Assembly: GCA_001799715.1 (NCBI GenBank)
Contig: MGTZ01000038.1
Span: 11,558 to 75,557 of the forward strand
Source of the DNA: Elusimicrobia bacterium GWB2_63_16
GTDB taxonomy: Bacteria; Elusimicrobiota; Elusimicrobia; Elusimicrobiales; UBA9959
Direction: 5' to 3'
DNA length: 64,000 nucleotides
Shown here in pieces: positions 6,367 to 58,834 of the stretch. Position 1 is the stretch's first letter; every line of letters starts with the position of its first letter. The translations under genes were made by a program, and so were the position numbers. The notes under the pieces are model-generated. The model worked only from the letters and a program-made list of their open reading frames with translations, was not told the DNA's origin and did not search any database.

Positions 6367-6412
6367 CGGCTAAATTATATAATTTGTCCCTGGGCGGCCC
6401 CGGGACTCAAAC

Positions 6413-8991: not shown

Positions 8992-9145
8992 TCCCTTTGG
9001 GACGCGGGGAGCTTGGTTGTTACCAGGCTGAGAGTTCCGGTATTGCCGGAAGACCCTTAAAACTTGATCCGGGTAATACCGGCGGAGGGAAAATGAAAGG
9101 GTCACAACTATTGCCGACTGCAACCGCGCAGCCGGCATTTTTTTG
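8992..9145 (+). promoter_or_regulatory. TPP (THI-box) riboswitch with terminator-type expression platform
   Basis: Aptamer 8992-9090 has CTGAGA...ACCCTT.AAC(T)TGATCCGGGTAATACCGGCG.AGGGA with P1 TCCCTT/GAGGGA. Downstream hairpin 9113-9136 (GCCGACTGC/GCAGCCGGC) plus a T7 run. Lies directly upstream of thiC. Confidence 0.85.
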
Positions 9146-21718: not shown

Positions 21719-21894
21719 AGCGTTTCCCCCGACAGCCGTTCAGCGGGCGGTCAGCCGTAGCATGACCGCTGAGCAAGTCGCAAAAGCGTCTTGTCCTTCA
21801 TTCGACCGAAAGACAATTATATATTTTCGCGAAGCGTGTCTGAGAGCAAAAACACCGGCTGGCTTTTACAGCCTAAAGGTTATAAAATCAAGGC

Positions 21895-30930: not shown

Positions 30931-32358
30931 TCACTTAAAACAATATATCACGGCAGAGCCTCCTATGGAGGCGGCTGTCACAAGATTAGAAGACGGGGCA
31001 GTCAGCGCCATAATGCCTGGCGGATGCGCCTCGATCACGCAGCGCCCGGAAAGATTTTCAATCTTTATCGCTTCATTATATGGCTGAAGGAAATCAGTTT
31101 TATCCCGCTGATGATAATAAGGTTTATTAGGTTTTCGCATACTGTATCCAAGGAATTGCGCCCAGGCACCGTCAGCGTAAACACCGGCCGGCGCGCGCTT
31201 TTCCAGATAGTCGCCAGCTAACCGCAGCGGCGCAGCCTCACGCGTCTGGTAGGCGCTCATTTCCCGCGCGCCGATAAAGGAAGCGGCCAGCGCGAATCCC
31301 AGCACTGGCCAGGCTAGCCCGCGGCGCAATTCAGAGAGATAAGCGCCAGCCACGGCCAGGCCCGGGAACATGGCCATGGAAAGGAAACGCAGCTGCTTAT
31401 GCACAGGCTTATACGGTGACAGGGACGCGGGGCCGAATTCCAGATAGGCGAAAACCACGGCGAACCAAGCCAGCGGCAGCCAGATCTGTGCCAGCCGCTT
31501 CTTCATAGCGAAGCCTATCACCGCTGCCGCAAACAGATAGAAACTGACTCCGAACAATGCGAGCCCGTACAGGTCCAGCCCCAGCAGGCCACGCAGGTAA
31601 ACCAGGTGGCCCTCCGGGTAAACCGCCGTGTCGGCCGCGAGTTTAGTCAGTTGCGAATGCAGGCTGAACAGCGGACTGCCCGCCAGCGCGGCGCCAGCAA
31701 TCCAGTCCGGGACAAGGGCGGCGGCAAATCCCGCCGCTACGGCCAGGTGGGCCGGGCGAGGCCGCAACTTTATCAGCCAGGCCGCAAAGACCAGCAGCAT
31801 AATAGCGGAGTTGAGCCTGGTATGCCAGCCGAATCCCGCGGCAAGGCCGGAAAGCGCCAGAAGGCCGGCACCGCCCCAACTGCCCCCCTTTTTGGAACCC
31901 TTGAGAAAAAGCAGGGCCGCAAGCCCTGTCCACAAGGTCAGTATCTCCTCGGGATAGAGCATTGTCCCGTGCACCACGCTCAGCGGCAGGAAAGCCTGCA
32001 GGAACGCGGAGATGACCCCGGCGCGGCGATCAAAAAGTTCCCGTCCAATGAAATAAGCGAGGACCGTGTTGCAGAGCGAACAGAGGAATGGCCAGGCCGC
32101 GGCGGCATAAACCCCCTGCCCGAGGAGTTTGTGAAAGAGCGCGGCCGGATAAGTTACGAGATATCTAAAGCCGTAATAACCGGAGGCGTCCCCCAGCCTG
32201 AACACGCCTTCGGAAATGTCGGCGGCTATCCTGGCATAAGCGAACTCGTCATAACCGGTCAGGCCGCTGTAAAAGGCGACTCGCAACGCGGCGGCGCAAA
32301 GAACGGCGGCCGCCAGCGGCAGCGCGTCTTCGCGGGAACCATCAGGAGCTTTTGGCAA
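30931..32358 (-). CDS. GT-C glycosyltransferase, ArnT/PMT-like (GT39/83-type)
   Basis: 475 aa, polytopic. Early DEFAY acidic loop motif. Confidence 0.75.
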   Translation of the reverse strand: MPKAPDGSREDALPLAAAVLCAAALRVAFYSGLTGYDEFAYARIAADISEGVFRLGDASGYYGFRYLVTYPAALFHKLLGQGVYAAAAWPFLCSLCNTVLAYFIGRELFDRRAGVISAFLQAFLPLSVVHGTMLYPEEILTLWTGLAALLFLKGSKKGGSWGGAGLLALSGLAAGFGWHTRLNSAIMLLVFAAWLIKLRPRPAHLAVAAGFAAALVPDWIAGAALAGSPLFSLHSQLTKLAADTAVYPEGHLVYLRGLLGLDLYGLALFGVSFYLFAAAVIGFAMKKRLAQIWLPLAWFAVVFAYLEFGPASLSPYKPVHKQLRFLSMAMFPGLAVAGAYLSELRRGLAWPVLGFALAASFIGAREMSAYQTREAAPLRLAGDYLEKRAPAGVYADGAWAQFLGYSMRKPNKPYYHQRDKTDFLQPYNEAIKIENLSGRCVIEAHPPGIMALTAPSSNLVTAASIGGSAVIYCFK

Positions 32359-33724
32359 CCAGCTCCTCCATTTGGGCCATCTTCATGACTACGGCGGTAA
32401 GGAACCAGAAGGGCTCCATGATGCGGACGATGATGAAAGTATTGACCCCCGTAGACTGGAACAGGAGCCCGATGAGTCCTATAATATACCCGATCGAGAT
32501 AGCCCTGACGAACGGCTCCTGACTGCCGCGGTAGAGCCGCCAGGCTACTTTAAAGCAGACATAGATCATCCATATCCACAGCAGGAAACCGATCACGCCG
32601 GTCTCTCCGATCACCAGCGGCAGCTGGGCGTCCACCAGGCCCGTGCCCGTCACGCCGTTGCCGATAAGGATGTTCTTTGGCAGCCAGTAGAATACGCTGC
32701 GCTGCCAGGCCCGCACGCGCATGGCCGCGGATTCCTCCAGGCGTATCTCGCCGAACGGGGTCTGGAACGTATTGGTAGCGTAAACGCCGCTATAGGTGAT
32801 CTCTACCCTCTCCTTGGCGCGCTCCGCCAAAAACGGGGTCATAACCAGAGCGGCCATGCCGGCTAGGAAGACCCCTGTCAGGAAAAGTTTTCTTTTTTTA
32901 GACAGCAATACGGCCGCGGCCGCGGAAAAAGCCAGGCCGATATAGGAAGAGCGGGACAGGGTGAAGACGAAGGCCGGCATCATGGCCACCATCGCCGCGA
33001 AGGACCAGGCGAAGCTGCGCACCGGCATTTCCGAGATCACGCCGAAGATCAGGCCGAAGACCAGTATATAGTAGCCGCCCAGGGAGGCCGGCTCGGATTC
33101 ATCCGGTTTGCCCAGCGGCACCTCGAAAGGGGTGGTGGCGCGGGCCCCGGCGCCGGCATTCAGATAGTACCAGACCGCATAGACCGTTACTATGGCCGCC
33201 ACTATAGCCCCGTATTTGAGGTAGCGCCGCACGTCATCCTTGCTCTCGATGATATTGAAAGTCATGAAATACAGCAGGAAGTACTCCACGTATTTCAGCA
33301 CATAGAAGATGGAGACTTCCCACCGCACCTTGCCGCCCAGCACCGCGAAGGCGGTGGAGAGCACGCAGACCATCGTGTAGAGAAGGATAGGGTTCTGCAC
33401 CGGGCTGCGAAAGACCAGCGGCTTGTCCTTTAGGATGGCCGTCTTGGCGAACCAGGAGAGGAACAGGACTATCAGGATGATGTCGTCGTAACGCAGAACA
33501 ATGTCGCGGCTGGTGCCCGAGAGGCCGGCCAGGTTGATCTCCGGCGACAGCAGCATGGCGAACACCAGCACCGTAAGGCCCGATTTCGGGGAAAGGAAAG
33601 CCAGCAGGATGGAAACAAAAGCGGCGCCCAGGGCCAGCGCCGGGGCCACGTTGGCACCGCCGCCGGCCAGGTGGCCGGCGAAGGCTGCTACCACCAGCGC
33701 TATGAGGACCAGTATTACCTGCAT
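32342..33724 (-). CDS. O-antigen ligase/polymerase (Wzy-like) membrane protein
   Basis: 460 aa, about 11 TM with a large loop in the C-terminal third. Position next to wzc/wza. Confidence 0.7.
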   Translation of the reverse strand: MQVILVLIALVVAAFAGHLAGGGANVAPALALGAAFVSILLAFLSPKSGLTVLVFAMLLSPEINLAGLSGTSRDIVLRYDDIILIVLFLSWFAKTAILKDKPLVFRSPVQNPILLYTMVCVLSTAFAVLGGKVRWEVSIFYVLKYVEYFLLYFMTFNIIESKDDVRRYLKYGAIVAAIVTVYAVWYYLNAGAGARATTPFEVPLGKPDESEPASLGGYYILVFGLIFGVISEMPVRSFAWSFAAMVAMMPAFVFTLSRSSYIGLAFSAAAAVLLSKKRKLFLTGVFLAGMAALVMTPFLAERAKERVEITYSGVYATNTFQTPFGEIRLEESAAMRVRAWQRSVFYWLPKNILIGNGVTGTGLVDAQLPLVIGETGVIGFLLWIWMIYVCFKVAWRLYRGSQEPFVRAISIGYIIGLIGLLFQSTGVNTFIIVRIMEPFWFLTAVVMKMAQMEELVAKSS

Positions 33725-33754: not shown

Positions 33755-35611
33755 TCAGCGGCTCACGTAGTTCTTGTAATCGTAATAATAGTTGCCGTAC
33801 TGCGGGCCCATCTCGGAGGCGCGCACGCCGTTGAGGACTACGCCCACCATGCGGGCGTTGGCCCCGCCGATCTGCTCCTTGGCGCGCTTGAGCGCGCCGC
33901 GTGCGATCTTGCCGGCCTTGTAGACCAGCACCACGCCGTCGGAGGCGTGCTTGGCGAGCATCAGCGAGTCGGCGAACAGCAGCACCGGCGGCGCGTCGAA
34001 GATGATCAGGTCGAACTCGCTCTTCAGGTCGGGCATCAGCTCGCGCCAGTTGGCCGAGTCCAGGATGTCTATCACGTTATCGGGCTGGGTGCCGCAGTTG
34101 AGGATCTTGAGGTTCTCTATGCCGGGAAAGCGCATCAGCTGGTCGTAGTCCAGGCCGCCCATGATGAAGTCGGCGCTCTCCAGCACTACGTCGCGCCACT
34201 CGCTGCGGCCGGTCAGCACGTCGCTGAGGCCCGGCTCTTTGCGCGTGCCGAAGATCTGGTTGATGGCCGGGCGCCGCAGGTCGGCGTCAATGAGCAGCGT
34301 ACGCATGCCCGAGTGCGCGCTGGCCAGGGCGAAGTTGACGGCGGTGAGGGTCTTGCCCTCCGCGGCGCCGGCGGAGCTGAACACCAGCGAGACGCTCTCC
34401 TTGGTGTTGAGCTGCGACATGATGTTGGTGCGCAGGGTGTGGTAGGACTCTATGATGCCGGTGGCGTAGCGGCGGTTGACCACGAGCACGCTGCGGAAAG
34501 CGTCCACCGTGTAGCGCTCCTTCTTGAACACCTGCGTCAGCCAGTTATCCAGGTGTTTCTCGCTGAGGATGTTGGGGATGATGCCCAGCACCGGCAGTTT
34601 GATGAAATTCTCGATGTCCTCGATGGTGGATATGGAGACGTCGAGGTTCTCCAGCAGGAACACCAGCACCACGGCCAGGAACACGCCCAGCACGGAGCCG
34701 GCCATCATGTTCAGGGCGCGGTTGGGCGACACCGGCGCCTGGTCCGGCACCGGCTTGTTGACCACGCTGACGAAAGAGACTATGGACGAGACGCCCAGCT
34801 TGGCTTCCTCGTACTGCTTGTTCAGCGTGGTGTAGAGGTCCTCCTGCATGCGCAGCTCGCGGCTGATGCGGGCCAGCTGCACTTCCTGCGCGGGGATCTC
34901 CTCCAGCTTGGACTGCACCACGTCGATGCGCTGGTCCAGGCTCAGCACGTCGGGATGGTTGGGCGTGTACTTCTCCAGCATCTGGCGCTTGCGTATCTCC
35001 AGGTCGGCCAGCTGGTTGGCCAGCGCGGAGCCCAGGCCGGTCCGCGGGTTGCGCTCCACGAAATTCTGCTTCTGCCGCTCCAGCGAGCGCAGGTTCTCCT
35101 CCACCTCGTCCTTGCGCGACGAGATGTCCTGCAGCGTCTTGCGGGCCTGCAGGCTCTTCTGCTCCAGGTCGAATTCCTTGTAGGCGTCTATCACGGCCGT
35201 CGCGATGTTCGCGGCGCGCTCCGGGTCGCTGCTGAAGGCGTAAAGGGCTATCAGGTTGGATTCCTGCAGGCGTTCCACCTTGTAGGAGCGGGACACCTCG
35301 TTTATCGAAGCGGCTCCGGAGGGCAGGCCCAGCTTGGCGGCGGCGCGCTCGGAGATCTCCGACGAGGTTATCACTTTGAGTTCCGTGGCCACGGCGCTCC
35401 ACGGGTCGTAATCCATCAGGTCGGCGCCCGGCATCTTGGCGTAGGAGGCCGGCGGCTTTATCTTGATGAGCGACTGGCTGCGGTACACCGTCGGCTGCAG
35501 CCGGGTGTAGAACATCGTGGAGAAGATCGTGACGGCGAAGACCAGCAGCGCCACCCATTTGCGGCGGTTGATGATGCGCCAGTAATCGTACAGCGTCAGT
35601 TCGGATTCCAT
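33755..35611 (-). CDS. polysaccharide co-polymerase / tyrosine autokinase (Wzc, BY-kinase)
   Basis: 618 aa. Wzz-like N-terminus with 2 TM and a coiled coil. Walker A SAGAAEGKT, A' LLIDADLRRP, B LIIFDAPP. C-terminal Tyr cluster YGNYYYDYKNY. Confidence 0.9.
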   Translation of the reverse strand: MESELTLYDYWRIINRRKWVALLVFAVTIFSTMFYTRLQPTVYRSQSLIKIKPPASYAKMPGADLMDYDPWSAVATELKVITSSEISERAAAKLGLPSGAASINEVSRSYKVERLQESNLIALYAFSSDPERAANIATAVIDAYKEFDLEQKSLQARKTLQDISSRKDEVEENLRSLERQKQNFVERNPRTGLGSALANQLADLEIRKRQMLEKYTPNHPDVLSLDQRIDVVQSKLEEIPAQEVQLARISRELRMQEDLYTTLNKQYEEAKLGVSSIVSFVSVVNKPVPDQAPVSPNRALNMMAGSVLGVFLAVVLVFLLENLDVSISTIEDIENFIKLPVLGIIPNILSEKHLDNWLTQVFKKERYTVDAFRSVLVVNRRYATGIIESYHTLRTNIMSQLNTKESVSLVFSSAGAAEGKTLTAVNFALASAHSGMRTLLIDADLRRPAINQIFGTRKEPGLSDVLTGRSEWRDVVLESADFIMGGLDYDQLMRFPGIENLKILNCGTQPDNVIDILDSANWRELMPDLKSEFDLIIFDAPPVLLFADSLMLAKHASDGVVLVYKAGKIARGALKRAKEQIGGANARMVGVVLNGVRASEMGPQYGNYYYDYKNYVSR

Positions 35612-36300
35612 TAGTCGTTATTCCTTGCCACCAGGCCGGCGGTTATCGCGAAGACGAAAAGGGTAGCCCACGGCACCACGTTGTCGGTGACCCAGCGCGC
35701 GGCGGCCGAGTAGGGCTTGCGCGGGATATAGACGATGTCGCCGGTGACGAGCGGGATATTGCTCTCCATCTTGCCTTCGAAAACGTCCTCGAGGTTGGCC
35801 TTTAGTACCACCTCGGTAACCTTGTCCCCGTCCTTGAGCTTGCGGTAGATGCGCACCTTGGCGTCGCGCGAGTAGTCGGCGGTGCCGCCGGCCAGCGCCA
35901 CCAGGTCCAGCAGGCGCATGCCCTCGCGGAATTCATGATAGCCGGGCGACTTCACCTGGCCTATCAACGCCACCCTGTTGAACGAGAACCTGCGCACGTT
36001 GAGCGTGATGGACGGGTTGGAGACGTACTTGGAGAACTTGGCGGTGAGCATCTTCTCCAGCTCGCCGGGCTTTATGCCCTGCGCCCGCATGGAGCCGAGC
36101 AGCGGTATCTCTATGGTGCCGTCGGGCTGTACCGTGACCTCTTTGGAAAATTCCTGCGCGGGGAAGACGTTGACGCTGATAACGTCTCCGGCCTCTATGA
36201 AATATTCCTTCTCCGCGGCGGCCGCTTCCAGGGCCGAGGCGGGCACCGAGCCCAGCAGCAGCAGGGCGGACAGGGCTATGGATATGATTTTCATAGTCAA
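35611..36300 (-). CDS. polysaccharide export protein (Wza-like, Poly_export + SLBB)
   Basis: 229 aa. Signal peptide, GDVISVNVF, PDGTIEIPLLG, GDIVYIP. 1-nt overlap with wzc. Confidence 0.85.
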   Translation of the reverse strand: MTMKIISIALSALLLLGSVPASALEAAAAEKEYFIEAGDVISVNVFPAQEFSKEVTVQPDGTIEIPLLGSMRAQGIKPGELEKMLTAKFSKYVSNPSITLNVRRFSFNRVALIGQVKSPGYHEFREGMRLLDLVALAGGTADYSRDAKVRIYRKLKDGDKVTEVVLKANLEDVFEGKMESNIPLVTGDIVYIPRKPYSAAARWVTDNVVPWATLFVFAITAGLVARNND

Positions 36301-36327
36301 ATTATATATATATTTGCGGTTATTATC

Positions 36328-36963
36328 TTATTTATTTCCGCCTTCCACGGCCTTGGACAGGCTTTTTACCAGGATGCGCAGTTCGTCCACTTTCTGCTCC
36401 AGCTCGCGGTCCCCGGCGCCTCCGGACTGGGTCTGGGGGTGCGCTCCGCCCGATACGGCCCTCGAACTGAGCACTTCGACGCGCTTGGACAGCGCGTCTA
36501 CCCGCTCTATCAGGCCGTTAGACTCCTGAGCCGGGCGCTGCGAATTCAGCACCAGCCTGAAGATAGCGACGGCCATGACCAGCGAGAAGAGCGAAAAAAT
36601 GGCGATGCCGGCTATGACCAGGTATTCAAAGCCGGCCAGCACGCCGCCCAGCGCGGCCGTCAGTGAACCCAGCATACCGAACAGTATGGTCTCCTTTATC
36701 TCGGCCCAGGCCGTGCCGGACAGCTTGTCTGCCGCTTCGGGCCGGGTCTCGGGAAGCCTGTACGGCCTGTTCATCCCCTCGCGCCGCACGCCCGCCGGCG
36801 CCGGGCCGGGACCGGTACCCGGCCGATAAGCCGGCGGCCGGCCGGACGGCTCTGACTGGCCCGCCTCGGGAAACCGGCCTTCGGACAGCCTGTCCCCGGG
36901 CAGCGGCCCCACCTCGCCTTTCAGGCGCTCCAGCAAGTCCTTCAGATCTTTGGTGCCGCTCAT
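36328..36963 (-). CDS. hypothetical membrane protein: Pro-rich N-terminus, two adjacent TM helices, C-terminal coiled coil
   Basis: 211 aa. ATGA overlap with the upstream gene. Hydrophobic block ILFGMLGSLTAALGGVLAGFEYLVIAGIAIFSLFSLVMAVAIF. 27 nt upstream of wza. Confidence 0.65.
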   Translation of the reverse strand: MSGTKDLKDLLERLKGEVGPLPGDRLSEGRFPEAGQSEPSGRPPAYRPGTGPGPAPAGVRREGMNRPYRLPETRPEAADKLSGTAWAEIKETILFGMLGSLTAALGGVLAGFEYLVIAGIAIFSLFSLVMAVAIFRLVLNSQRPAQESNGLIERVDALSKRVEVLSSRAVSGGAHPQTQSGGAGDRELEQKVDELRILVKSLSKAVEGGNK

Positions 36964-37667
36964 ATGCCGCCGCCTTTGGCCGGCTGCTGCGCCTCGCGCG
37001 CGGCCAGTCCTTTTTCCCTGGCTTCGAGACCTTCGCGGATGCGGTCGAAAGTCCGTATCAGCTCGCTTTTGCGGGCGTTAAATTCTTCTTCCAGGGCTTT
37101 TTCGCGGAGTTTCAGCTGCCGCTCCCTGGCGGCGCGCTCGCCTTCGAACTCCTGGCTCCGCGCCTCCAGCGCCCGGTTCTTGTCCTCCCAGCGCAGCAGC
37201 AGGTCCAGCTCCTTCTTGCTGACCTTATCGTAGAGCTCCTGCATGCGGGTCACGTACTTGGAATTCAGCTCGCCTTCCTGCTCGGCGGTGCGCATCTTCA
37301 GCTCGGCCAGCAGCGTCTCGCGGTCCGACAGAACGGAGCGGAATTCCTCCAGGCGCTTGAGCGCATCGGCGCGGTCGGCTTCGGACTTGGCCAGGCGGGC
37401 CTTCAGGTCCTCTATCTCTTTCTTCAGCCGGCCCTCTTTCTGCTCGTATTTGTCGTGGCCGGCCTGCAGGCGCTCGGCATAGTCCTCGTCGTATTCCTTG
37501 ACGAGCTGCCCGAGCGATTTCACGTCGGGCTCGAACTCCTCGAGGATGGCGGTCAGGTGCACCGAGGCCGGGCTTTTGCTCTCCCAGAGGCGGGCGGCCA
37601 GGTCCTTGAGGCGCTCCATCAGCTCCACCGGCACGCATTGTATGGCGCGTTCTTTTTCCATGATCAT
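36960..37667 (-). CDS. hypothetical coiled-coil protein
   Basis: 235 aa, E/K/R/L-rich heptad-like sequence, no signal peptide. ATGA overlaps at both ends. Confidence 0.7.
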   Translation of the reverse strand: MIMEKERAIQCVPVELMERLKDLAARLWESKSPASVHLTAILEEFEPDVKSLGQLVKEYDEDYAERLQAGHDKYEQKEGRLKKEIEDLKARLAKSEADRADALKRLEEFRSVLSDRETLLAELKMRTAEQEGELNSKYVTRMQELYDKVSKKELDLLLRWEDKNRALEARSQEFEGERAARERQLKLREKALEEEFNARKSELIRTFDRIREGLEAREKGLAAREAQQPAKGGGI

Positions 37668-40600
37668 TTCCTGCCCTTATAGTCCATGATGGCGCGGGTC
37701 AGTTCCGCCTTCATCTGCTCCAGCTCGCCGGCCTTGATGGAATATTCCTTTTCCAGTTTCAGCCTGTAGTCGCTGAGATTCTGCTCCTTCTCGCTGAGCG
37801 CCTGCTTCTGCGCGTAGAGCTCGTCGTTGAACTTGCTCAGGCGCTGGTTCAGCTCGGCGTGCGTCTTGTCCAGTTCCAGCTGCTTCTGGCGGCAGAACCT
37901 GTCGCTGTCGCCCAGCAGCTTCTCCTTGGCTTCCAGCAGCTCCTCGAGCTGCTTCACGCGCGCCTCGGTGCGGGCTTTCTCCTCGGCGGCCGCGTCGCGG
38001 AACCGCTTGTCCTGCTCGGAGATATTGCGCATCAGCTCGCTGGAAGAGTCCTGGCGGTAGCGCAGCATCTCGCGCTCCAGTTCCTGCATCTTGGCCTCGG
38101 CGCTCTCTATGTAGCGGTCGCGGCGGTCCATTTCCTCGAGCAGGCGGTCCTTCTCGGCGGCGAACTCGGCTTCCATGGAGCCAGCTTCCTCGAGGGCCTC
38201 CTTGCGGGCCTTAGCCAGCTCGTCCTGCGCGTGGCGCAGGCGCTGTTCCGTCACCTCTACCGCGGCGGCCACGGCCTCGCTGATGGAGGCCTCGGCCTCG
38301 CGCACGTGCTCCGTCTGCATGCCGAGCTTCTCGGAGTGGTAATTCTTCTCGGCGGCCAGCAGTTTCTCGGCCAGTTCGGCCGACCTGGCGTTGGCGGAAG
38401 CCGCGGCGGCGCTGATCTTCTCCAGGGCGCTCTTCAGCGCGGCGTTCTCCTCGGTAAGGCGGTCGCGCTGCAGCCCTATCTCGGCCTCGAGCGCGGCGCG
38501 GCGGGCGCGGAAATCGTCCTCCAGCGCGGCCTGGCGCGCGGCGTAAGAACCTTCCAGTTCCACGCGCCTGTCTTCCTCGGCGCGCGTGAAATCCGCCAGT
38601 ATCCTGGCTTCCAGGTCGCTGCGGGAGCGCTGCGAATCTTCTTTAAGGCGCTGCAGTTCCTCGTGCTTGGTCTGCAGCGAATCGGCCAGTCCGGCCTTCT
38701 CAACCTTCATGGCTTCCATGGCTTCCACCAGGGCCGCCGTCTGGGCGAGCACGGCCTCCTTGACCCTGGCGGAAAGTTCGCGGTCGAAAGAGGCTTTGGC
38801 CGCTATAACCTCGCCGGTCAGGGCGGCTTCGCTGGCGCCCGCGTCCTCGGCCGCCTTGCGCAGCCGGGTGTTGAGTTCCACGATCTCCACCTGGGCGTCG
38901 CGGAACTGACCGGAGAGCTGCTCCAGCGTAGCCTCCAGGCGCGCCCGCTCGGCGTCGCGGTTCTTGCCGTCGGCCTGCGACGAAGCGGAGAAGGACGCCT
39001 TGAAAGCCTCTATCGCGGTCTCGGAGTCGGCCTTGATCCTGGCGGTCATCGCCTCGTAGCCGGCCTTCAGTTCGGCCGAGCGCTCCTCGAATTTAGCGGC
39101 GGCTTCGGCGGAGACGCGGGCCAGTTCGGCGCCATGCCTCTCGCGCTCCACGGCGGCTTCCCTGGCGGCGGCCTCCAGGCGGGCGGCCATAGCGCCCAGC
39201 TCGGCCTCGTAGACCGACGCCCTCGCGGCGGCCTCGGAGTCCAGGCGCTGCCTGTCGGCGGCGGAGGCCGCGTCCCTGGCGCGCAGTTCCTCCTCCATCT
39301 TCTTTATTGAATCGTTATAAGCCCGCCGCTCGGTCTCGAAGGCGGCAAGTTTCTCCCGGAAGGAGGCCTCGGCGGCGCTCACGCGCGCCATGATCTCCCC
39401 GCGGTGGTCCTCTTTCAGGGAAGAGATATTATTCTCAAGTTCTTTTATTTTATCCGAAGCTGCGGCCAGCGCGGCCTCGAAGTGCCCTTTGGCTTCGGCC
39501 ATGCTTGCGCGTTCGGCGGCCATCACGGCCCGCTCCCGGGCCATGCGGTTTTCCAGGTTTCTTTCCAGCTCGCCCCGCTCGGCGGACATGGCCGAGGCGA
39601 TGGACTCTTTGCGGACGGTGTAATCCCGCTCAAAACCGGCCTCGCGCTCACGGAACGCGGCCTCCATGGCCGCAGCGCGGGCGTCGAAGTCGGCGCGCAG
39701 GGCGGCCTTTTCGGCCTCCCAGCCGGCGGCCCGCTTCTCCAGCGCGGCGGACAGCTCGCGCACGCTGTTCTCCTTGGCGGCCTTCTCCTTCTCCAGCTCG
39801 GCGAGCTGGGCGCGGAAGGCGGTCTCCTTCTCGGAGATCAGCTTCAGCAGCTCGGAGTGATGTTTCTCCTGCTGGGCGGCCAGATTGTTCTCTATCTCCT
39901 TAATGCGGTCCTGGGCCGCGAGGAACTGCTCCTCGCGCACGCGCTGCTCTTCCAGCAGGCGCGAACGCTCGGCCTGCCAGGAGGCCTCCAGCGAGGAAAC
40001 CTGGGCGGCGTGGTCGGAATCGGCGGCGCGGATCTTCTCCTCCAGGCCGGTCTCCAGCATGGAGCGCAGCTTGCGGTAATTCTCCTCGGTCTCGCGCTTC
40101 TTGGAGAGGTACTCGGCCTCCAGTTCGCGGCGGCGGGTCTCCACCCGCTCCTCGGAGCTGCGCACGTTGCCCTCGAGCAGCGCCAGCCGCTCGCCGAATT
40201 CCTTCTCCTTGGCCTTGAAAGAGGCCTGCAGGGCGGTCAGGCGCCCCTGGTGCTCGGCGTCCAGCTCGGCGCGCAGCGAATCGTATTTTTTCTGGGCCTC
40301 GCTCAGGCGGCCGGCGTACTGGCTCTCCACGTCCAGCAGGCGGGCGTTCCAGCGCTCCATGATGGCGCGCTGGCTGCGGTCCAGCTCCTCGAACTTCTCC
40401 TGGTACTCGGTCTCCAGGCTGCGGCGCAGCGAATCCAGCTTGGCCTCTTTCTTGAGCAGCTGCTGTATGTCCAGCTTGCCCTCGCCCAGCAGGGACATCG
40501 TGGCTTCCAGCTTGGTGTAAAAATCCTCTTTCTCCTCGATGGTCTTGTTGCGGGAATCGTAGGCGTCGCGCAGCGAGCTCTCTTTGAGCTGCAGCCGCTT

Positions 40601-40759
40601 GGCGGTCTCTTCGGCCAGCGTCAGGTTCTTCTTGAGGTCGGCCTTTTCTTTCTCGATGTTCTGCAGCCGTTCCAGCGCCCAGCGCAGGGTCATGCGCGCC
40701 GTGTCCAGGCTGGTCACGTCGTTAACAAGCTGTTCGAGTTCGCCGTATTCGTTTGCCAT
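37664..40759 (-). CDS. giant coiled-coil protein (1031 aa), no signal peptide, no recognisable enzymatic domain
   Basis: Uninterrupted ORF with E/A/R/K/L-rich heptad-like sequence throughout. Recurrent acidic-Ala-acidic-aromatic motif (ELEAEY, SLEASW, AAEASF, SMEAEF). Confidence 0.8.
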   Translation of the reverse strand: MANEYGELEQLVNDVTSLDTARMTLRWALERLQNIEKEKADLKKNLTLAEETAKRLQLKESSLRDAYDSRNKTIEEKEDFYTKLEATMSLLGEGKLDIQQLLKKEAKLDSLRRSLETEYQEKFEELDRSQRAIMERWNARLLDVESQYAGRLSEAQKKYDSLRAELDAEHQGRLTALQASFKAKEKEFGERLALLEGNVRSSEERVETRRRELEAEYLSKKRETEENYRKLRSMLETGLEEKIRAADSDHAAQVSSLEASWQAERSRLLEEQRVREEQFLAAQDRIKEIENNLAAQQEKHHSELLKLISEKETAFRAQLAELEKEKAAKENSVRELSAALEKRAAGWEAEKAALRADFDARAAAMEAAFREREAGFERDYTVRKESIASAMSAERGELERNLENRMARERAVMAAERASMAEAKGHFEAALAAASDKIKELENNISSLKEDHRGEIMARVSAAEASFREKLAAFETERRAYNDSIKKMEEELRARDAASAADRQRLDSEAAARASVYEAELGAMAARLEAAAREAAVERERHGAELARVSAEAAAKFEERSAELKAGYEAMTARIKADSETAIEAFKASFSASSQADGKNRDAERARLEATLEQLSGQFRDAQVEIVELNTRLRKAAEDAGASEAALTGEVIAAKASFDRELSARVKEAVLAQTAALVEAMEAMKVEKAGLADSLQTKHEELQRLKEDSQRSRSDLEARILADFTRAEEDRRVELEGSYAARQAALEDDFRARRAALEAEIGLQRDRLTEENAALKSALEKISAAAASANARSAELAEKLLAAEKNYHSEKLGMQTEHVREAEASISEAVAAAVEVTEQRLRHAQDELAKARKEALEEAGSMEAEFAAEKDRLLEEMDRRDRYIESAEAKMQELEREMLRYRQDSSSELMRNISEQDKRFRDAAAEEKARTEARVKQLEELLEAKEKLLGDSDRFCRQKQLELDKTHAELNQRLSKFNDELYAQKQALSEKEQNLSDYRLKLEKEYSIKAGELEQMKAELTRAIMDYKGRK

Positions 40760-40903
40760 AGTTTTCCCATTGCCTGCGCAGGTGCCGCATCAGGGGCTTT
40801 GCCCATCAAGCGGCCTTTTTACTACTTAAAGTCTAATATACCGGGCCCTCTTTAGCAATAAAGGGAATGTTAAATGATTATTAAATGAATGTTTCGGGCC
40901 CGG

Positions 40904-40953: not shown

Positions 40954-41379
40954 ATGCTGAAAAGGTTTTTCTGGACGGCCCTGGTGGCCGCGGCGGTACT
41001 CGCGGGGTGGCGCTTCGGCTACCAGGCGGCGCTGAAATATTTTTTCAAGGTTTCCGGTTCCGTGACCCTGGCCGGGGAAGTGGCCGGGGCCCTGCCCGGG
41101 GCCAACGGCATGCTCTTCGTAATAGCCCGCAACGAGCGGGGCGTGCCGGTGGCGGTAGCCAAGATCATCAACCCCCGCTTCCCGGCCGAGTTCGCTCTGA
41201 CCCCCTCCAGCCTGATCATGCCCGACCTGCTGACCACCAGGGTATACCTGGAAGCGGCGCTGAACACGCACGGCCAGCTGGGCTCCTTCCGTAAGGGCGA
41301 CCTGCGCGGCGAGCGCCCGGAACGCGCCTACTTCATCAGCAAGGACATCCAGGTCCGCCTCGACAGCACCGTAAAATAA
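40954..41379 (+). CDS. hypothetical exported or membrane-anchored protein
   Basis: 141 aa. N-terminal hydrophobic helix FFWTALVAAAVLAGW. No family recognised with confidence. Confidence 0.6.
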   Translation: MLKRFFWTALVAAAVLAGWRFGYQAALKYFFKVSGSVTLAGEVAGALPGANGMLFVIARNERGVPVAVAKIINPRFPAEFALTPSSLIMPDLLTTRVYLEAALNTHGQLGSFRKGDLRGERPERAYFISKDIQVRLDSTVK

Positions 41380-41382
41380 ACC

Positions 41383-41410
41383 GGGGCGCCTTTCAGCGCC
41401 CCGTTCTGGT
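41383..41410 (+). terminator. probable terminator after the 40954..41379 gene
   Basis: GGGGCGC / GCGCCCC stem, 6-nt loop, weak T-rich tail. A second small hairpin plus T6 lies at 41414-41434. Confidence 0.4.
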
Positions 41411-46857: not shown

Positions 46858-46931
46858 TGGCTCCCGGGCATGGATTTGAACCATGTCTAACCGAGTCAAA
46901 GTCGGTTGTGCTACCGTTACACCACCCGGGA
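46858..46931 (-). tRNA. tRNA-Gln (anticodon UUG), CCA encoded
   Basis: Cloverleaf folded by hand: acceptor UCCCGGG/CCCGGGA (U1-A72), anticodon stem ACCGA/UCGGU with loop CUUUGAC, T arm CAUGG-UUCAAAU-CCAUG. Confidence 0.9.
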
Positions 46932-58354: not shown

Positions 58355-58428
58355 TAATTAAACCCCGCTTTTAACAGCGTTATATAATTTTATATTATAT
58401 CATTCTAGTAAGGCGCTGTAGCCGGCAG

Positions 58429-58519
58429 GGAAGGATGGCCGAGCGGTTTAAGGCGCCGGTCTTGAAAACCGGTGTACGGTTAATCCGTACCGTGGGTTCG
58501 AATCCCACTCCTTCCGCCA
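58429..58519 (+). tRNA. tRNA-Ser (anticodon UGA), long variable arm, CCA encoded
   Basis: Folded by hand: acceptor GGAAGGA/UCCUUCC, anticodon stem CCGGU/ACCGG with loop CUUGAAA, T arm GUGGG-UUCGAAU-CCCAC. Confidence 0.9.
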
Positions 58520-58746: not shown

Positions 58747-58834
58747 GGAGAGGTGTGTGAGCGGTTGAAACAGCAGGTCTCGAAAACCTGTAAGGGTCAA
58801 ACCTTCGAGGGTTCGAATCCCTCCCTCTCCGCCA
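58747..58834 (+). tRNA. tRNA-Ser (anticodon CGA), long variable arm, CCA encoded
   Basis: Folded by hand: acceptor GGAGAGG/CCUCUCC, anticodon stem CAGGU/ACCUG with loop CUCGAAA, T arm GAGGG-UUCGAAU-CCCUC. Confidence 0.9.

What the first reader, a model, noticed from the sequence alone, without database searches (positions are those of the whole stretch)
36328..40759. Translationally coupled triad (1031-aa coiled coil, 235-aa coiled coil, 211-aa Pro-rich two-TM anchor) heading the Wza/Wzc polysaccharide export operon
Seen directly: three minus-strand genes are joined by ATGA start/stop overlaps at 37664-37667 and 36960-36963. The last one ends 27 nt before the wza-like gene, which overlaps wzc. 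The two large proteins have no signal peptide, no TM segment and no enzymatic motif. They are E/A/R/K/L-rich throughout, with a recurring acidic-Ala-acidic-aromatic motif (ELEAEY, SLEASW, AAEASF, SMEAEF, ALEAEI). The third protein has a proline-rich N-terminus, two adjacent TM helices and a short C-terminal coiled coil. Inference: this is a membrane-tethered cytoplasmic coiled-coil scaffold co-expressed with, and possibly positioning or gating, a Wzx/Wzy/Wzc export machine, for example for localised or polar glycan or adhesin deposition. Canonical Wza-Wzb-Wzc loci do not, to my knowledge, include such components.
Basis: partly seen in the sequence, partly recalled or inferred. Interest (0 to 1): 0.65.

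Follow-up and report, generated by a model that had tools for sequence, protein, structure and literature searches.

The report
Elusimicrobial coiled-coil triad beside polysaccharide exporter
Three tightly packed genes found only in Elusimicrobia encode a giant helical rod, a shorter related rod and a small membrane anchor; they almost always sit just upstream of a sugar-polymer export machine, which suggests an uncharacterised internal scaffold for it, but the function is untested.

Summary
Three minus-strand genes are real: A (1031 aa), B (235 aa) and C (211 aa). They are packed by ATGA overlaps and lie 33 nt upstream of wza-wzc-wzy.

- **Family status.** None of the three matches Pfam, NCBIfam, PHROGs, PADLOC, PDB sequences or PDB folds. 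All detectable homologues come from Elusimicrobia MAGs.
- **A and B.** Both are all-helical rods with no TM segment and, in A, no proline. A has a short heptad N-terminus followed by a rod with hydrophobic periodicity 3.625, not 3.5. This holds in all 67 homologues tested. It resembles the hendecad-rich rods of Streptomyces Scy/FilP, but the DivIVA-like motif is absent.
- **C.** It has a conserved N-terminal helix, a Pro-rich linker, a TM hairpin and two C-terminal helices.
- **Linkage to the exporter.** The block A-B-C-wza-wzc-wzy persists in about 40 loci, including four where the DNA read upstream is unrelated to the usual neighbours. Starting from wza, 42 of 48 metagenome loci carry C upstream. 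The link is not obligate: one genome keeps A+B alone, and a Wza lineage at 40% identity has wza-wzc-wzy without the triad.
- **Operon claim.** A conserved TATATAAT box 6-9 nt before the wza ATG suggests wza has its own promoter, so "heading the operon" is only partly right.

Best reading: a membrane-tethered, IF-like scaffold functionally tied to the export machine. This is an inference.

The parts
37664..40759 (-). Gene A: 1031-aa all-helical rod protein with no Pro and no TM segment. The AF2 model has five long helices (4-92, 98-233, 246-420, 431-826, 841-1028).
   Evidence: 71 homologues, all those named being from Elusimicrobia, 578-1774 aa. ORFs in related loci range from 790 to 2957 aa.
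39770..40759 (-). Conserved head of A (residues 1-330). It includes a heptad-type segment (1-92), the invariant stretch DTARMTLRWALE (residues 19-30) and the invariant LLGEGK break (residues 90-95).
   Evidence: Alignments A3 and A4. Periodicity peaks at 3.45 for residues 1-97.
38183..39769 (-). Variable-length, Ala/Glu/Arg-rich central rod of A (residues ~331-859). Hydrophobic periodicity is about 3.625.
37667..38182 (-). Moderately conserved tail of A (residues ~860-1031), ending in the conserved ...AELTRAIMxY motif.
36960..37667 (-). Gene B: 235 aa (233 aa if it starts at the conserved MEKER, ATG at 37661). It has a conserved 60-aa N-terminal helical hairpin with invariant C-V-P, then one ~190-residue helix. 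Residues 120-216 are related to A residues 152-237.
   Evidence: AF2 mean pLDDT is 88. hhalign gives probability 80% and E 1.4e-5.
36328..36963 (-). Gene C: 211-aa anchor. It has a conserved N-terminal helix (MSGTxDLKDLLDRLKGEVGPLP), a variable Pro-rich linker, a TM hairpin and two conserved C-terminal helices.
   Evidence: Only 68 hits among 1.84 billion representative proteins.
36550..36690 (-). TM hairpin of C (residues 92-138), with invariant Gly/Ser residues and a short E/D-Y turn.
40830..40862 (-). Promoter-like element upstream of A. In the window it reads TTGCTA-17-TAGACT; in relatives TTGACT-17-TAAACT. An AT-rich block lies upstream of it and an AAAGG-type Shine-Dalgarno sequence precedes the ATG.
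   Evidence: Conserved across about 20 loci. It falls below the threshold of the consensus scan in the window.
36295..36327 (-). C-wza spacer carrying AAATATATATATAAT (TATATAAT at 36301-36308), 6 nt before the wza ATG. This is a probable internal -10 box of the leaderless type.
   Evidence: The motif is conserved next to the wza ATG in most of 31 related loci, even where the spacer is 130-140 nt. The octamer occurs 5 times in the window against 0.32 expected, always intergenic, and once 41 nt upstream of a tRNA.
35611..36294 (-). wza-like OPX gene (227 aa: signal peptide, Poly_export, one SLBB domain and a hydrophobic C-terminal helix).
33755..35611 (-). wzc-like PCP/BY-kinase gene (Wzz, GNVR, Walker A/A'/B and a C-terminal Tyr cluster).
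32342..33724 (-). Wzy_C-like polymerase/ligase gene, the last member of the conserved six-gene block.

Best explanation
A, B and C form a lineage-specific, membrane-tethered rod scaffold in the cytoplasm of Elusimicrobia.

**Shown**
- A and B are paralogous, fully alpha-helical rods. A has a short heptad N-terminal segment followed by a long rod with hydrophobic periodicity of about 3.63, meaning nearly straight, Ala-rich, hendecad-type packing.
- A has a highly conserved head and tail and a central rod of very variable length.
- C is a two-TM hairpin protein with both tails on the same side of the membrane. I place them in the cytoplasm because the 90-residue N-terminal tail is rich in Arg/Lys (15 K+R, against 14 D+E) and has no signal peptide, so translocating it would be unlikely, and because the partners A and B lack signal peptides.
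- B and C are made from overlapping ATGA start/stop codons.

**Inferred**
- A and B co-assemble into a rod or filament, as paralogous long/short pairs such as Scy/FilP do.
- C ties this assembly to the inner membrane, using its conserved N-terminal helix on a flexible Pro-rich tether and its C-terminal helices.
- The assembly organises or positions the adjacent Wza-Wzc-Wzy polysaccharide assembly and export machine, rather than taking part in its chemistry.
- The triad has its own promoter and wza probably has a second one, so the two modules can be expressed together or separately.
For: **Structure**
- AF2 models are all-helical.
- Periodicity peaks at 3.625 with z about 30, while 3.5 scores z 0.3. 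All 67 A homologues peak at 3.625-3.65 and 104 B homologues at 3.575-3.60.
- The head and tail of A are conserved and the centre varies in length.
- B is related to part of A.
- The architecture and TM hairpin of C are shown.
- The B-C ATGA overlap is present in 32 of 37 loci.

**Link to export**
- The order A-B-C-wza-wzc-wzy is found in 31 of the 32 GTDB species-representative loci that B retrieved; the remaining contig ends just after C.
- The block is retained where the upstream neighbours seen are different: L040 (HD-GYP, response regulator, ABC transporter), L005 (where the C-like gene overlaps the wza start by 20 nt) and L041 (M48 peptidase). In L042 and L043, reached through distant C homologues, too little upstream DNA is held to see the neighbours.
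- Starting from Wza instead, 42 of 48 metagenome loci with at least 700 nt upstream carry C, and 33 of 36 with at least 1500 nt carry B.
- No terminator lies between C and wza.

**Precedents**
- Cytoskeletal scaffolds that guide polysaccharide secretion are known: the BcsH/BcsD scaffold and cortical belt (PMC9757748, PMC7811197), and the Streptomyces polarisome with tip-localised CslA (PMC6224456).
Against: - No experiment or interaction prediction links the triad to Wza, Wzc or Wzy.
- L002 keeps A and a duplicated B but has no C and no wza-wzc nearby.
- A lineage whose Wza is 40% identical has wza-wzc-wzy-flippase without the triad (L097).
- wza carries its own conserved promoter-like box, whereas the triad has a different promoter and a Shine-Dalgarno sequence.
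- All loci come from one phylum, so part of the synteny may simply be inherited.
- The oligomeric state and any filament formation are unknown. AF2 was run on monomers only, and the model of A has mean pLDDT 67.
Confidence: 0.45

Rival explanations
1. The triad is a general cytoskeletal, cell-shape or polarity scaffold (a coiled-coil-rich, IF-like system). It has nothing specific to do with polysaccharide export, and the adjacency is inherited synteny within one clade.
For: - L002 retains A+B without C, wza or wzc.
- A related lineage has wza-wzc-wzy without the triad.
- The triad and wza have separate promoter-like elements.
- The triad also keeps a fixed position downstream of glmU-prs-L25-pth in most loci.
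- All members come from Elusimicrobia.
Against: - The six-gene block survives at least three changes of the upstream neighbourhood.
- C was never seen away from wza in about 80 loci.
- In L005 the C-like gene overlaps wza.
- Extra rod paralogues are inserted inside the block, between C and wza, rather than elsewhere.
Confidence: 0.3
2. A and B are substrates or regulators of the Wzc tyrosine kinase. Their conserved Tyr/Phe-containing repeat motifs would be phosphorylated to switch scaffold assembly or export activity.
For: - Wzc is a complete BY-kinase with a Tyr cluster.
- A has invariant tyrosines: Y5, Y81, Y119, Y159 and Y1027.
- FilP is reported to be phosphorylated (PMC6224456).
Against: - The aromatic positions are Phe, Trp or Tyr interchangeably. 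They sit at hydrophobic core positions, with Leu at -4, +4 and +7. This fits packing rather than phospho-acceptor sites.
- There is no direct evidence.
Confidence: 0.1
3. The rods are membrane-binding amphipathic helices, in the manner of PspA/Vipp1, apolipoproteins or perilipins. Their role would be to remodel or protect the inner membrane.
For: A periodicity of 3.6-3.64 equals that of an undistorted amphipathic alpha-helix (the figure of 3.63 residues per turn is from PMC9858780).
Against: - Only 16-27% of residues are bulky hydrophobics and the sequence is highly charged.
- There is no Pfam match to PspA/IM30 or any other family.
- A dedicated TM anchor, C, would be unnecessary.
Confidence: 0.08
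4. The genes belong to a known family seen through coiled-coil noise: an SMC/Rad50-like ATPase, EzrA, DivIVA or a phage tape-measure protein.
For: - JGI auto-annotations read "chromosome segregation ATPase".
- There are sub-threshold matches of the rods to SMC, LmuB and ZorA coiled-coil regions.
Against: - All such matches score far below the curated cut-offs (18 bits against 729) and cover only coiled-coil parts.
- No ATPase head, DivIVA domain or PHROG match was found.
- Foldseek against PDB found nothing for A and nothing with E below 2 for B.
Confidence: 0.02

Closest known systems
Scy / FilP (Streptomyces IF-like rod proteins of the polarisome)
   Same: - A long protein sits next to a short one with related rods (that scy and filP are adjacent genes is from my own knowledge).
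- Each has a short N-terminal heptad coiled coil followed by a long Ala-rich rod that departs from heptads towards hendecads, with a periodicity of about 3.63-3.64 (PMC9858780, which cites Walshaw et al. 2010).
- Scy and FilP act in a scaffold that directs envelope synthesis at a defined site, where a glucan synthase (CslA) also localises (PMC6224456).
   Different: - There is no GYDxxEVD / DivIVA-like N-terminal domain.
- No sequence similarity was detected.
- The phylum is different and the cells are diderm.
- This system has a dedicated TM-hairpin partner, C.
- It is genomically tied to wza-wzc-wzy.
BcsH-BcsD cytoskeletal scaffold / cortical belt of Gluconacetobacter cellulose secretion
   Same: A cytoplasmic supramolecular scaffold is encoded with a polysaccharide secretion system and is proposed to organise the secretion machines from the inside (PMC9757748, PMC7811197).
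   Different: - The fold is unrelated: BcsD octamers rather than long rods.
- That system is synthase-dependent (BcsA), not Wzx/Wzy-dependent.
- No homology was found.
Bacterial coiled-coil-rich proteins (crescentin, Helicobacter Ccrp, cyanobacterial CCRPs)
   Same: They are long cofactor-independent helical rods with no enzymatic domains, are often lineage-specific, and are sometimes encoded as interacting pairs (PMC7002697; bioRxiv 10.1101/553073).
   Different: - Those proteins are linked to cell shape, not encoded within a polysaccharide export block.
- They are mostly heptad-based.
- They have no dedicated hairpin anchor.
Canonical Wza-Wzb-Wzc (group 1 capsule / Wzx-Wzy-dependent) loci
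   Same: The downstream genes are a bona fide OPX protein, a PCP-2a BY-kinase, a Wzy-like protein, a flippase and glycosyltransferases.
   Different: - To my knowledge, canonical loci have no cytoplasmic rod proteins or hairpin anchor. Two full-text searches (Elusimicrobia plus coiled-coil; Wzc plus coiled-coil, cytoplasmic, scaffold and localization) returned no paper describing one.
- The Wza here is short: one SLBB domain plus a C-terminal hydrophobic helix.
- No wzb phosphatase lies next to wzc.

Membership tests
Scy/FilP/DivIVA-like domain proteins | [quoted passage not shown] | tested here: not met
   The N-terminus of A reads MANEYGELEQLVNDVTSLDTARMTLRWALE and lacks the motif. There is no Pfam DivIVA hit. 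The profile of A residues 1-130 finds no DivIVA, GpsB or Wag31 chains in PDB at E up to 10.
Scy/FilP/DivIVA-like domain proteins | Short heptad segment followed by a long Ala-rich rod with hendecad-type periodicity | tested here: met
   A residues 1-97 peak at 3.45. Residues 98-1031 peak at 3.625 (z about 30), while 3.5 scores z 0.3. This is conserved in 67 homologues. A is 17.5% Ala.
Scy/FilP/DivIVA-like domain proteins | Cofactor-independent self-assembly into filaments or networks | not testable with these tools
   This needs purified protein and EM. AF2 monomer models only show long helices.
SMC / Rad50 / MukB-like proteins | Walker A/B ABC-type ATPase head domains flanking an antiparallel coiled coil with a hinge | tested here: not met
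   There are no SMC_N, AAA_23 or similar Pfam hits. NCBIfam SMC matches B at 18 bits against a cut-off of 729, in the coiled-coil region only.
EzrA | N-terminal TM helix plus spectrin-like repeat arch (Pfam EzrA) | tested here: not met
   No Pfam hit. No TM segment in A or B. No Foldseek match in PDB.
Phage tape-measure proteins | Membership of tape-measure PHROGs or Pfam families, in a tail-gene context | tested here: not met
   PHROGs gives no hit for A or C, and only an unknown-function family at E 0.006 for B. The neighbours are housekeeping and polysaccharide genes.
PspA / IM30 / Vipp1 | PspA_IM30 domain (ESCRT-III-like helical hairpin) | tested here: not met
   No Pfam or NCBIfam hit. 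The only ESCRT-III-like Foldseek row for B has E 6.3.
Wza-Wzc (OPX + PCP-2a BY-kinase) export system: neighbouring genes only | OPX protein with Poly_export and SLBB domains; PCP with Wzz and GNVR domains, a Walker A/A'/B kinase domain and a C-terminal Tyr cluster | tested here: met
   A, B and C themselves match none of these models.

The most novel reading that the evidence does not exclude
The triad is the first dedicated cytoplasmic, IF-like scaffold of a Wzx/Wzy-dependent (Wza-Wzc) export machine. In this reading a straight A/B rod is tethered by the hairpin protein C and places or spaces the export complexes on the inner membrane. Rod length varies from 790 to 2957 residues between species, roughly 0.1-0.4 micrometres if fully extended, which is comparable to the width of these very small cells. 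That length would act as a ruler for where the polymer emerges.
Probability: 0.2. Interest if true: 0.75.

Novelty: new variant of a known kind. Interest (0 to 1): 0.5.

Why it matters
Wzx/Wzy-dependent export machines are usually described as self-contained envelope complexes. How they are placed in the cell is largely unknown outside a few models.

This is a conserved gene block in which a giant rod, a shorter paralogue and a membrane anchor travel with wza-wzc-wzy. It offers a concrete candidate for an inside-out organiser of polysaccharide secretion, comparable in idea to the BcsHD scaffold for cellulose.

It also adds a second, phylogenetically remote example of the unusual non-heptad rod type (periodicity about 3.63) so far associated with Scy/FilP. 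The three families have no annotation at present.

The limits are that everything functional is inferred and that the organisms are uncultivated MAG lineages.

Tried and rejected
**Family and fold searches that found nothing significant**
- Pfam, NCBIfam, PHROGs and PADLOC scans of A, B and C gave only sub-threshold coiled-coil noise: SMC, HBL, LmuB and ZorA.
- PDB sequence searches with single sequences and with profiles of the A head, B and C found nothing significant. The best hit was E 0.017 to a phage needle coiled coil.
- Foldseek against PDB gave no hits for A and nothing with E below 2 for B.
- Rfam found no riboswitch or known RNA in the A 5' UTR or the C-wza spacer.
- Literature searches found no description of this triad or of cytoplasmic rods in Wza/Wzc loci.

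**Items set aside**
- P0071 (E 3e-7 to A) sits in an unrelated context and was dismissed as coiled-coil noise.
- The consensus promoter scan did not flag either promoter-like element in the window, because both fall below its 9-of-12 rule. The case for them rests on conservation.
- A strict internal tandem repeat in A was rejected. The spacing of the aromatic motifs is irregular (29-54 residues). What is regular is the 7/11/18/29-residue hydrophobic autocorrelation.

**Not done**
- I did not use the third fold search, because single long helices give uninformative matches.
- Multimer prediction of C with A, B or Wzc was not possible with the tools, which fold single chains only.
Full report
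**1. What is in the sequence**

- The A/B junction reads ...GGC AGG AAA TGA TC ATG G... The ATGA overlap is real. Most homologues begin B at the second ATG (MEKER), 2 nt after the A stop and 8-9 nt after an AGGA.
- The B/C junction (GGC ATA TGA GC) is a true ATGA overlap.
- wza most probably starts at the ATG at 36294, not at the TTG at 36300. The ATG opens a signal peptide and is the invariant start in relatives. The spacer is therefore 33 nt.
- wza and wzc overlap by one base.

The downstream genes are a genuine Wzx/Wzy-type set. They comprise an OPX protein (Poly_export + SLBB) and a PCP-2a BY-kinase with Walker motifs and a YGNYYYDYKNY tail. A Wzy_C-like protein, a PMT_2 glycosyltransferase, a flippase, a methyltransferase and a GT2 follow.

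Upstream, after a divergently transcribed 141-aa gene, lie pth, L25, prs and glmU. The triad therefore has its own 5' intergenic region.

**2. The proteins**

*A.* It has no proline and is 17.5% Ala and 16.5% Glu. It has no hydrophobic segment: the maximum 19-residue Kyte-Doolittle mean is 0.85. AF2 models it as five long helices separated by four short breaks, with mean pLDDT 67.

Across 15 homologues the first ~330 residues are strongly conserved. They include twelve consecutive invariant residues, DTARMTLRWALE, which remain invariant even in loci only 42-55% identical over this region. The last ~170 residues are moderately conserved. The centre is variable in sequence and length. Homologues range from 578 to 1774 aa. 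ORFs in related loci range from 790 to 2957 aa.

*B.* It has a conserved 60-residue N-terminal helical hairpin with an invariant Cys-Val-Pro, followed by a single ~190-residue helix (pLDDT 88). Profile-profile comparison relates B 120-216 to A 152-237 (probability 80%, E 1.4e-5). The two rods are therefore probably paralogous.

*C.* It has a conserved N-terminal helix (MSGTxDLKDLLDRLKGEVGPLP) and a Pro-rich linker of variable length. A hydrophobic hairpin follows at residues 92-138, with invariant Gly/Ser positions and a two-residue E/D-Y turn. Two conserved C-terminal helices complete the protein. The hairpin puts both tails on the same side of the membrane. I infer that this side is the cytoplasm. 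The 90-residue N-terminal tail carries 15 Lys/Arg (and 14 Asp/Glu) and has no signal peptide, so translocating it would be unlikely. The partners A and B also lack signal peptides.

**3. The rods are not ordinary coiled coils**

Windowed Fourier analysis of bulky hydrophobic residues gives the following.

| Segment | Peak period | Score |
|---|---|---|
| A 1-97 | 3.45-3.5 (heptad-type) | z about 4 |
| A 98-1031 | 3.625 | z about 30 |
| A 98-1031, at period 3.5 | not a peak | z 0.3 |
| B rod | 3.6 | z about 11 |

- The strongest autocorrelation lags in the A rod are 7, 18, 11, 25, 40, 29 and 51.
- The pattern holds in all 67 A homologues (peaks at 3.625-3.65) and in 104 B homologues (3.575-3.60).
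- A periodicity equal to that of an undistorted helix (3.63) means almost no supercoiling. This is characteristic of hendecad-containing rods, which need small core residues such as Ala (PMC9858780).
The aromatic residue has Leu at -4, +4 and +7, Glu at -3 and Ala at -2. This 4-4-3 spacing is a hendecad core signature, not a catalytic or ligand motif.

**4. No known family**

- Pfam, NCBIfam, PHROGs and PADLOC give nothing above noise.
- PDB sequence and profile searches are negative, including a specific test of the A head against DivIVA, GpsB and Wag31.
- Foldseek against PDB is negative.
- Wherever a source gives a name, the homologues of A, B and C are Elusimicrobia MAG proteins called hypothetical.
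- A profile of C finds only 68 proteins among 1.84 billion cluster representatives.

**5. Neighbourhood survey**

- Using B as probe on one genome per GTDB species gave 32 loci, none named outside Elusimicrobia. In 31 of them the order is A-B-C-wza-wzc(-wzy). In L017 the contig ends just after C. Where the flank is long enough, glmU-prs-L25-pth and the divergent 141-aa gene lie upstream.
- This clade-wide synteny alone could be inherited. Loci with other upstream contexts are more informative. L040 has an HD-GYP protein, a response regulator and an ABC transporter upstream (A 33% identical). L005 has unrelated neighbours, an A-like protein of 1763 aa and a C-like gene overlapping wza by 20 nt. 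L041 has an M48 peptidase upstream. L042 and L043 were reached through the most distant C homologues. In L042 the giant gene nearly reaches the contig end, and L043 starts within it, so their upstream neighbours are not visible. All five keep the order giant rod, 230-330-aa rod, C, wza, wzc, and wzy where the contig is long enough; L005 has an extra small gene.
- The reverse probe used a Wza profile on metagenome contigs and gave 59 loci. C was upstream in 42 of 48 loci with enough flank, and B in 33 of 36.

Some of the misses have an extra gene between C and wza. In L018 this is a 938-aa paralogue with a B-type head and a long rod. L019, L055, L062, L067 and L101 show a gap of similar size (2-3 kb) between C and wza, which I did not read.

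There are true exceptions in both directions.
- L002 has A and an internally duplicated B (382 aa). It has no C and no wza-wzc; other genes follow.
- L097/L098, whose Wza is 40% identical, have wza-wzc-wzy-flippase preceded by radical-SAM genes on the opposite strand.

The association is strong, and C in particular was never seen away from wza. It is not obligate.

**6. Transcription signals**

- No terminator-like hairpin lies between C and wza. A bidirectional one closes the upstream gene pair at 41382-41403.
- The short C-wza spacer carries AAATATATATATAAT ending 6 nt before the wza ATG. This box, at 6-9 nt from the ATG, is conserved in most of 31 relatives. It persists even where the spacer is 130-140 nt and otherwise unalignable.
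- In this window of about 63% GC, TATATAAT occurs five times against 0.32 expected. All occurrences are intergenic. One is 41 nt upstream of a tRNA gene, and one is 7 nt before another ATG.
- I therefore infer that it is a real -10 element and that wza has an internal promoter, possibly of the leaderless type.
- More distant lineages (L003, L005) lack the box and have a Shine-Dalgarno-like spacer or an overlap instead.
- A has a different conserved signal: TTGACT-17-TAAACT in relatives and TTGCTA-17-TAGACT here, followed by an AAAGG-type ribosome-binding site.

The triad is thus one translationally packed unit. "One operon with wza" is at best partly true in this clade.

**7. Most likely mechanism**

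*Shown.* There are two paralogous straight rods with conserved ends, a hairpin anchor co-translated with the short rod, and persistent adjacency to wza-wzc-wzy.

*Inferred.*
- A and B co-assemble.
- C tethers them to the inner membrane through its N-terminal helix on a flexible Pro-rich arm and its C-terminal helices.
- The assembly organises the export complexes.

In L005 three consecutive proteins, two of them with hydrophobic hairpins, start with C-like peptides: (S)xEDLRKLM..., SLEELRRVLQKM... and SIEELRNLLNRL.... This fits a docking-peptide role for that helix.

Precedents for the idea are the BcsH/BcsD scaffold of cellulose secretion (PMC9757748, PMC7811197) and the Scy/FilP/DivIVA polarisome, near which the CslA glucan synthase works (PMC6224456).

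I put 0.45 on the scaffold-for-export reading and 0.3 on a general cytoskeletal role with inherited synteny. Smaller weights go to a kinase-substrate role (0.1), a membrane-binding role (0.08) and a known-family explanation (0.02).

**8. Comparison and novelty**

In how it is built, the A/B pair works like Scy/FilP. It has a heptad start, a hendecad-type Ala-rich rod and a long-plus-short paralogue pair. It fails the family's defining DivIVA-like motif, so it is not a member. It is not part of any described Wza-Wzb-Wzc system.

I classify it as a new variant of a known kind, the bacterial coiled-coil-rich or IF-like scaffolds. It is distinguished by its dedicated hairpin anchor, its extreme rod-length variation and its linkage to a polysaccharide export block.

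Interest is moderate at 0.5. The finding is conserved, unannotated and conceptually attractive, but its function is unproven and the hosts are uncultivated.

Noticed in passing
window 36295-36327 (minus strand); also 6374-6383, 21816-21823, 58381-58388: TATATAAT behaves as this genome's -10 box. It occurs 5 times against 0.32 expected, always in intergenic DNA. One copy is 41 nt upstream of a tRNA. A palindromic copy (ATTATATAAT) lies between divergent genes, 7 nt before one ATG. The copy before wza is 6 nt from the ATG, which suggests a leaderless transcript.
   Followed up: partly
L018:6587-9403; gaps of similar size in L019, L055, L062, L067 and L101: In L018 an extra 938-aa paralogue is inserted between C and wza. 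It has a B-type N-terminal domain (MEKEKLVHYVPADMVDRLKKLLVRLWETRNP...) fused to a long A-like rod. Five other loci have a 2-3 kb gap at the same place, which I did not read. The rod family seems to expand inside the block.
   Followed up: partly
L034:1123-9993; L032, L021, L039: A-family proteins reach 2957 aa (L034), and 1774-1891 aa in other species, against 790 aa in L041. The variation lies in the central rod.
   Followed up: partly
L005:15289-17590: Three consecutive genes (421, 138 and 205 aa) all begin with a C-like N-terminal peptide (xxEDLRKLM / SLEELRRVL / SIEELRNLL). Two of them carry hydrophobic hairpins, and the last overlaps wza by 20 nt. This suggests the N-terminal helix is a shared docking peptide.
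   Followed up: no
L002:13272-14420: In the only locus lacking C and wza-wzc, B is internally duplicated (382 aa, with two copies of the rod module).
   Followed up: no
window 40760-40830 (minus strand): The 5' UTR of A contains a GC-rich insert of about 50 nt (GGCCGCTTGATGGGCAAAGCCCCTGATGCGGCACCTGCGCAGGC). It is present in some relatives (L009, L010, L032, L034) and absent in others. It has no Rfam match.
   Followed up: partly
window 35611-36294 (minus strand): The Wza is short (227 aa): Poly_export, a single SLBB domain and a conserved hydrophobic C-terminal helix (VVPWATLFVFAITAGLV). Its OPX class, and whether it needs a separate outer-membrane beta-barrel partner (compare PMC9601211, PMC9603273), was not resolved.
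   Followed up: no
window 40954-41379 (plus strand): A divergently transcribed 141-aa gene has an N-terminal hydrophobic segment. Its relatives carry an Ig_CycH Pfam mark. It is conserved next to A in most loci, including L002.
   Followed up: no
window 8998-9107 (plus strand): TPP riboswitch, 54.4 bits against a gathering score of 54.3. tRNA genes lie at 46861-46931 (minus strand), 58429-58516 and 58747-58831 (plus strand).
   Followed up: no
window 33755-36300 and downstream: No wzb-type phosphatase gene lies next to wzc in the conserved block. The gene content downstream of wzy varies between species (ABC transporter Wzm/Wzt in L003, NeuB and CMP-sugar genes in L040), as is typical of surface-glycan diversity.
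   Followed up: no
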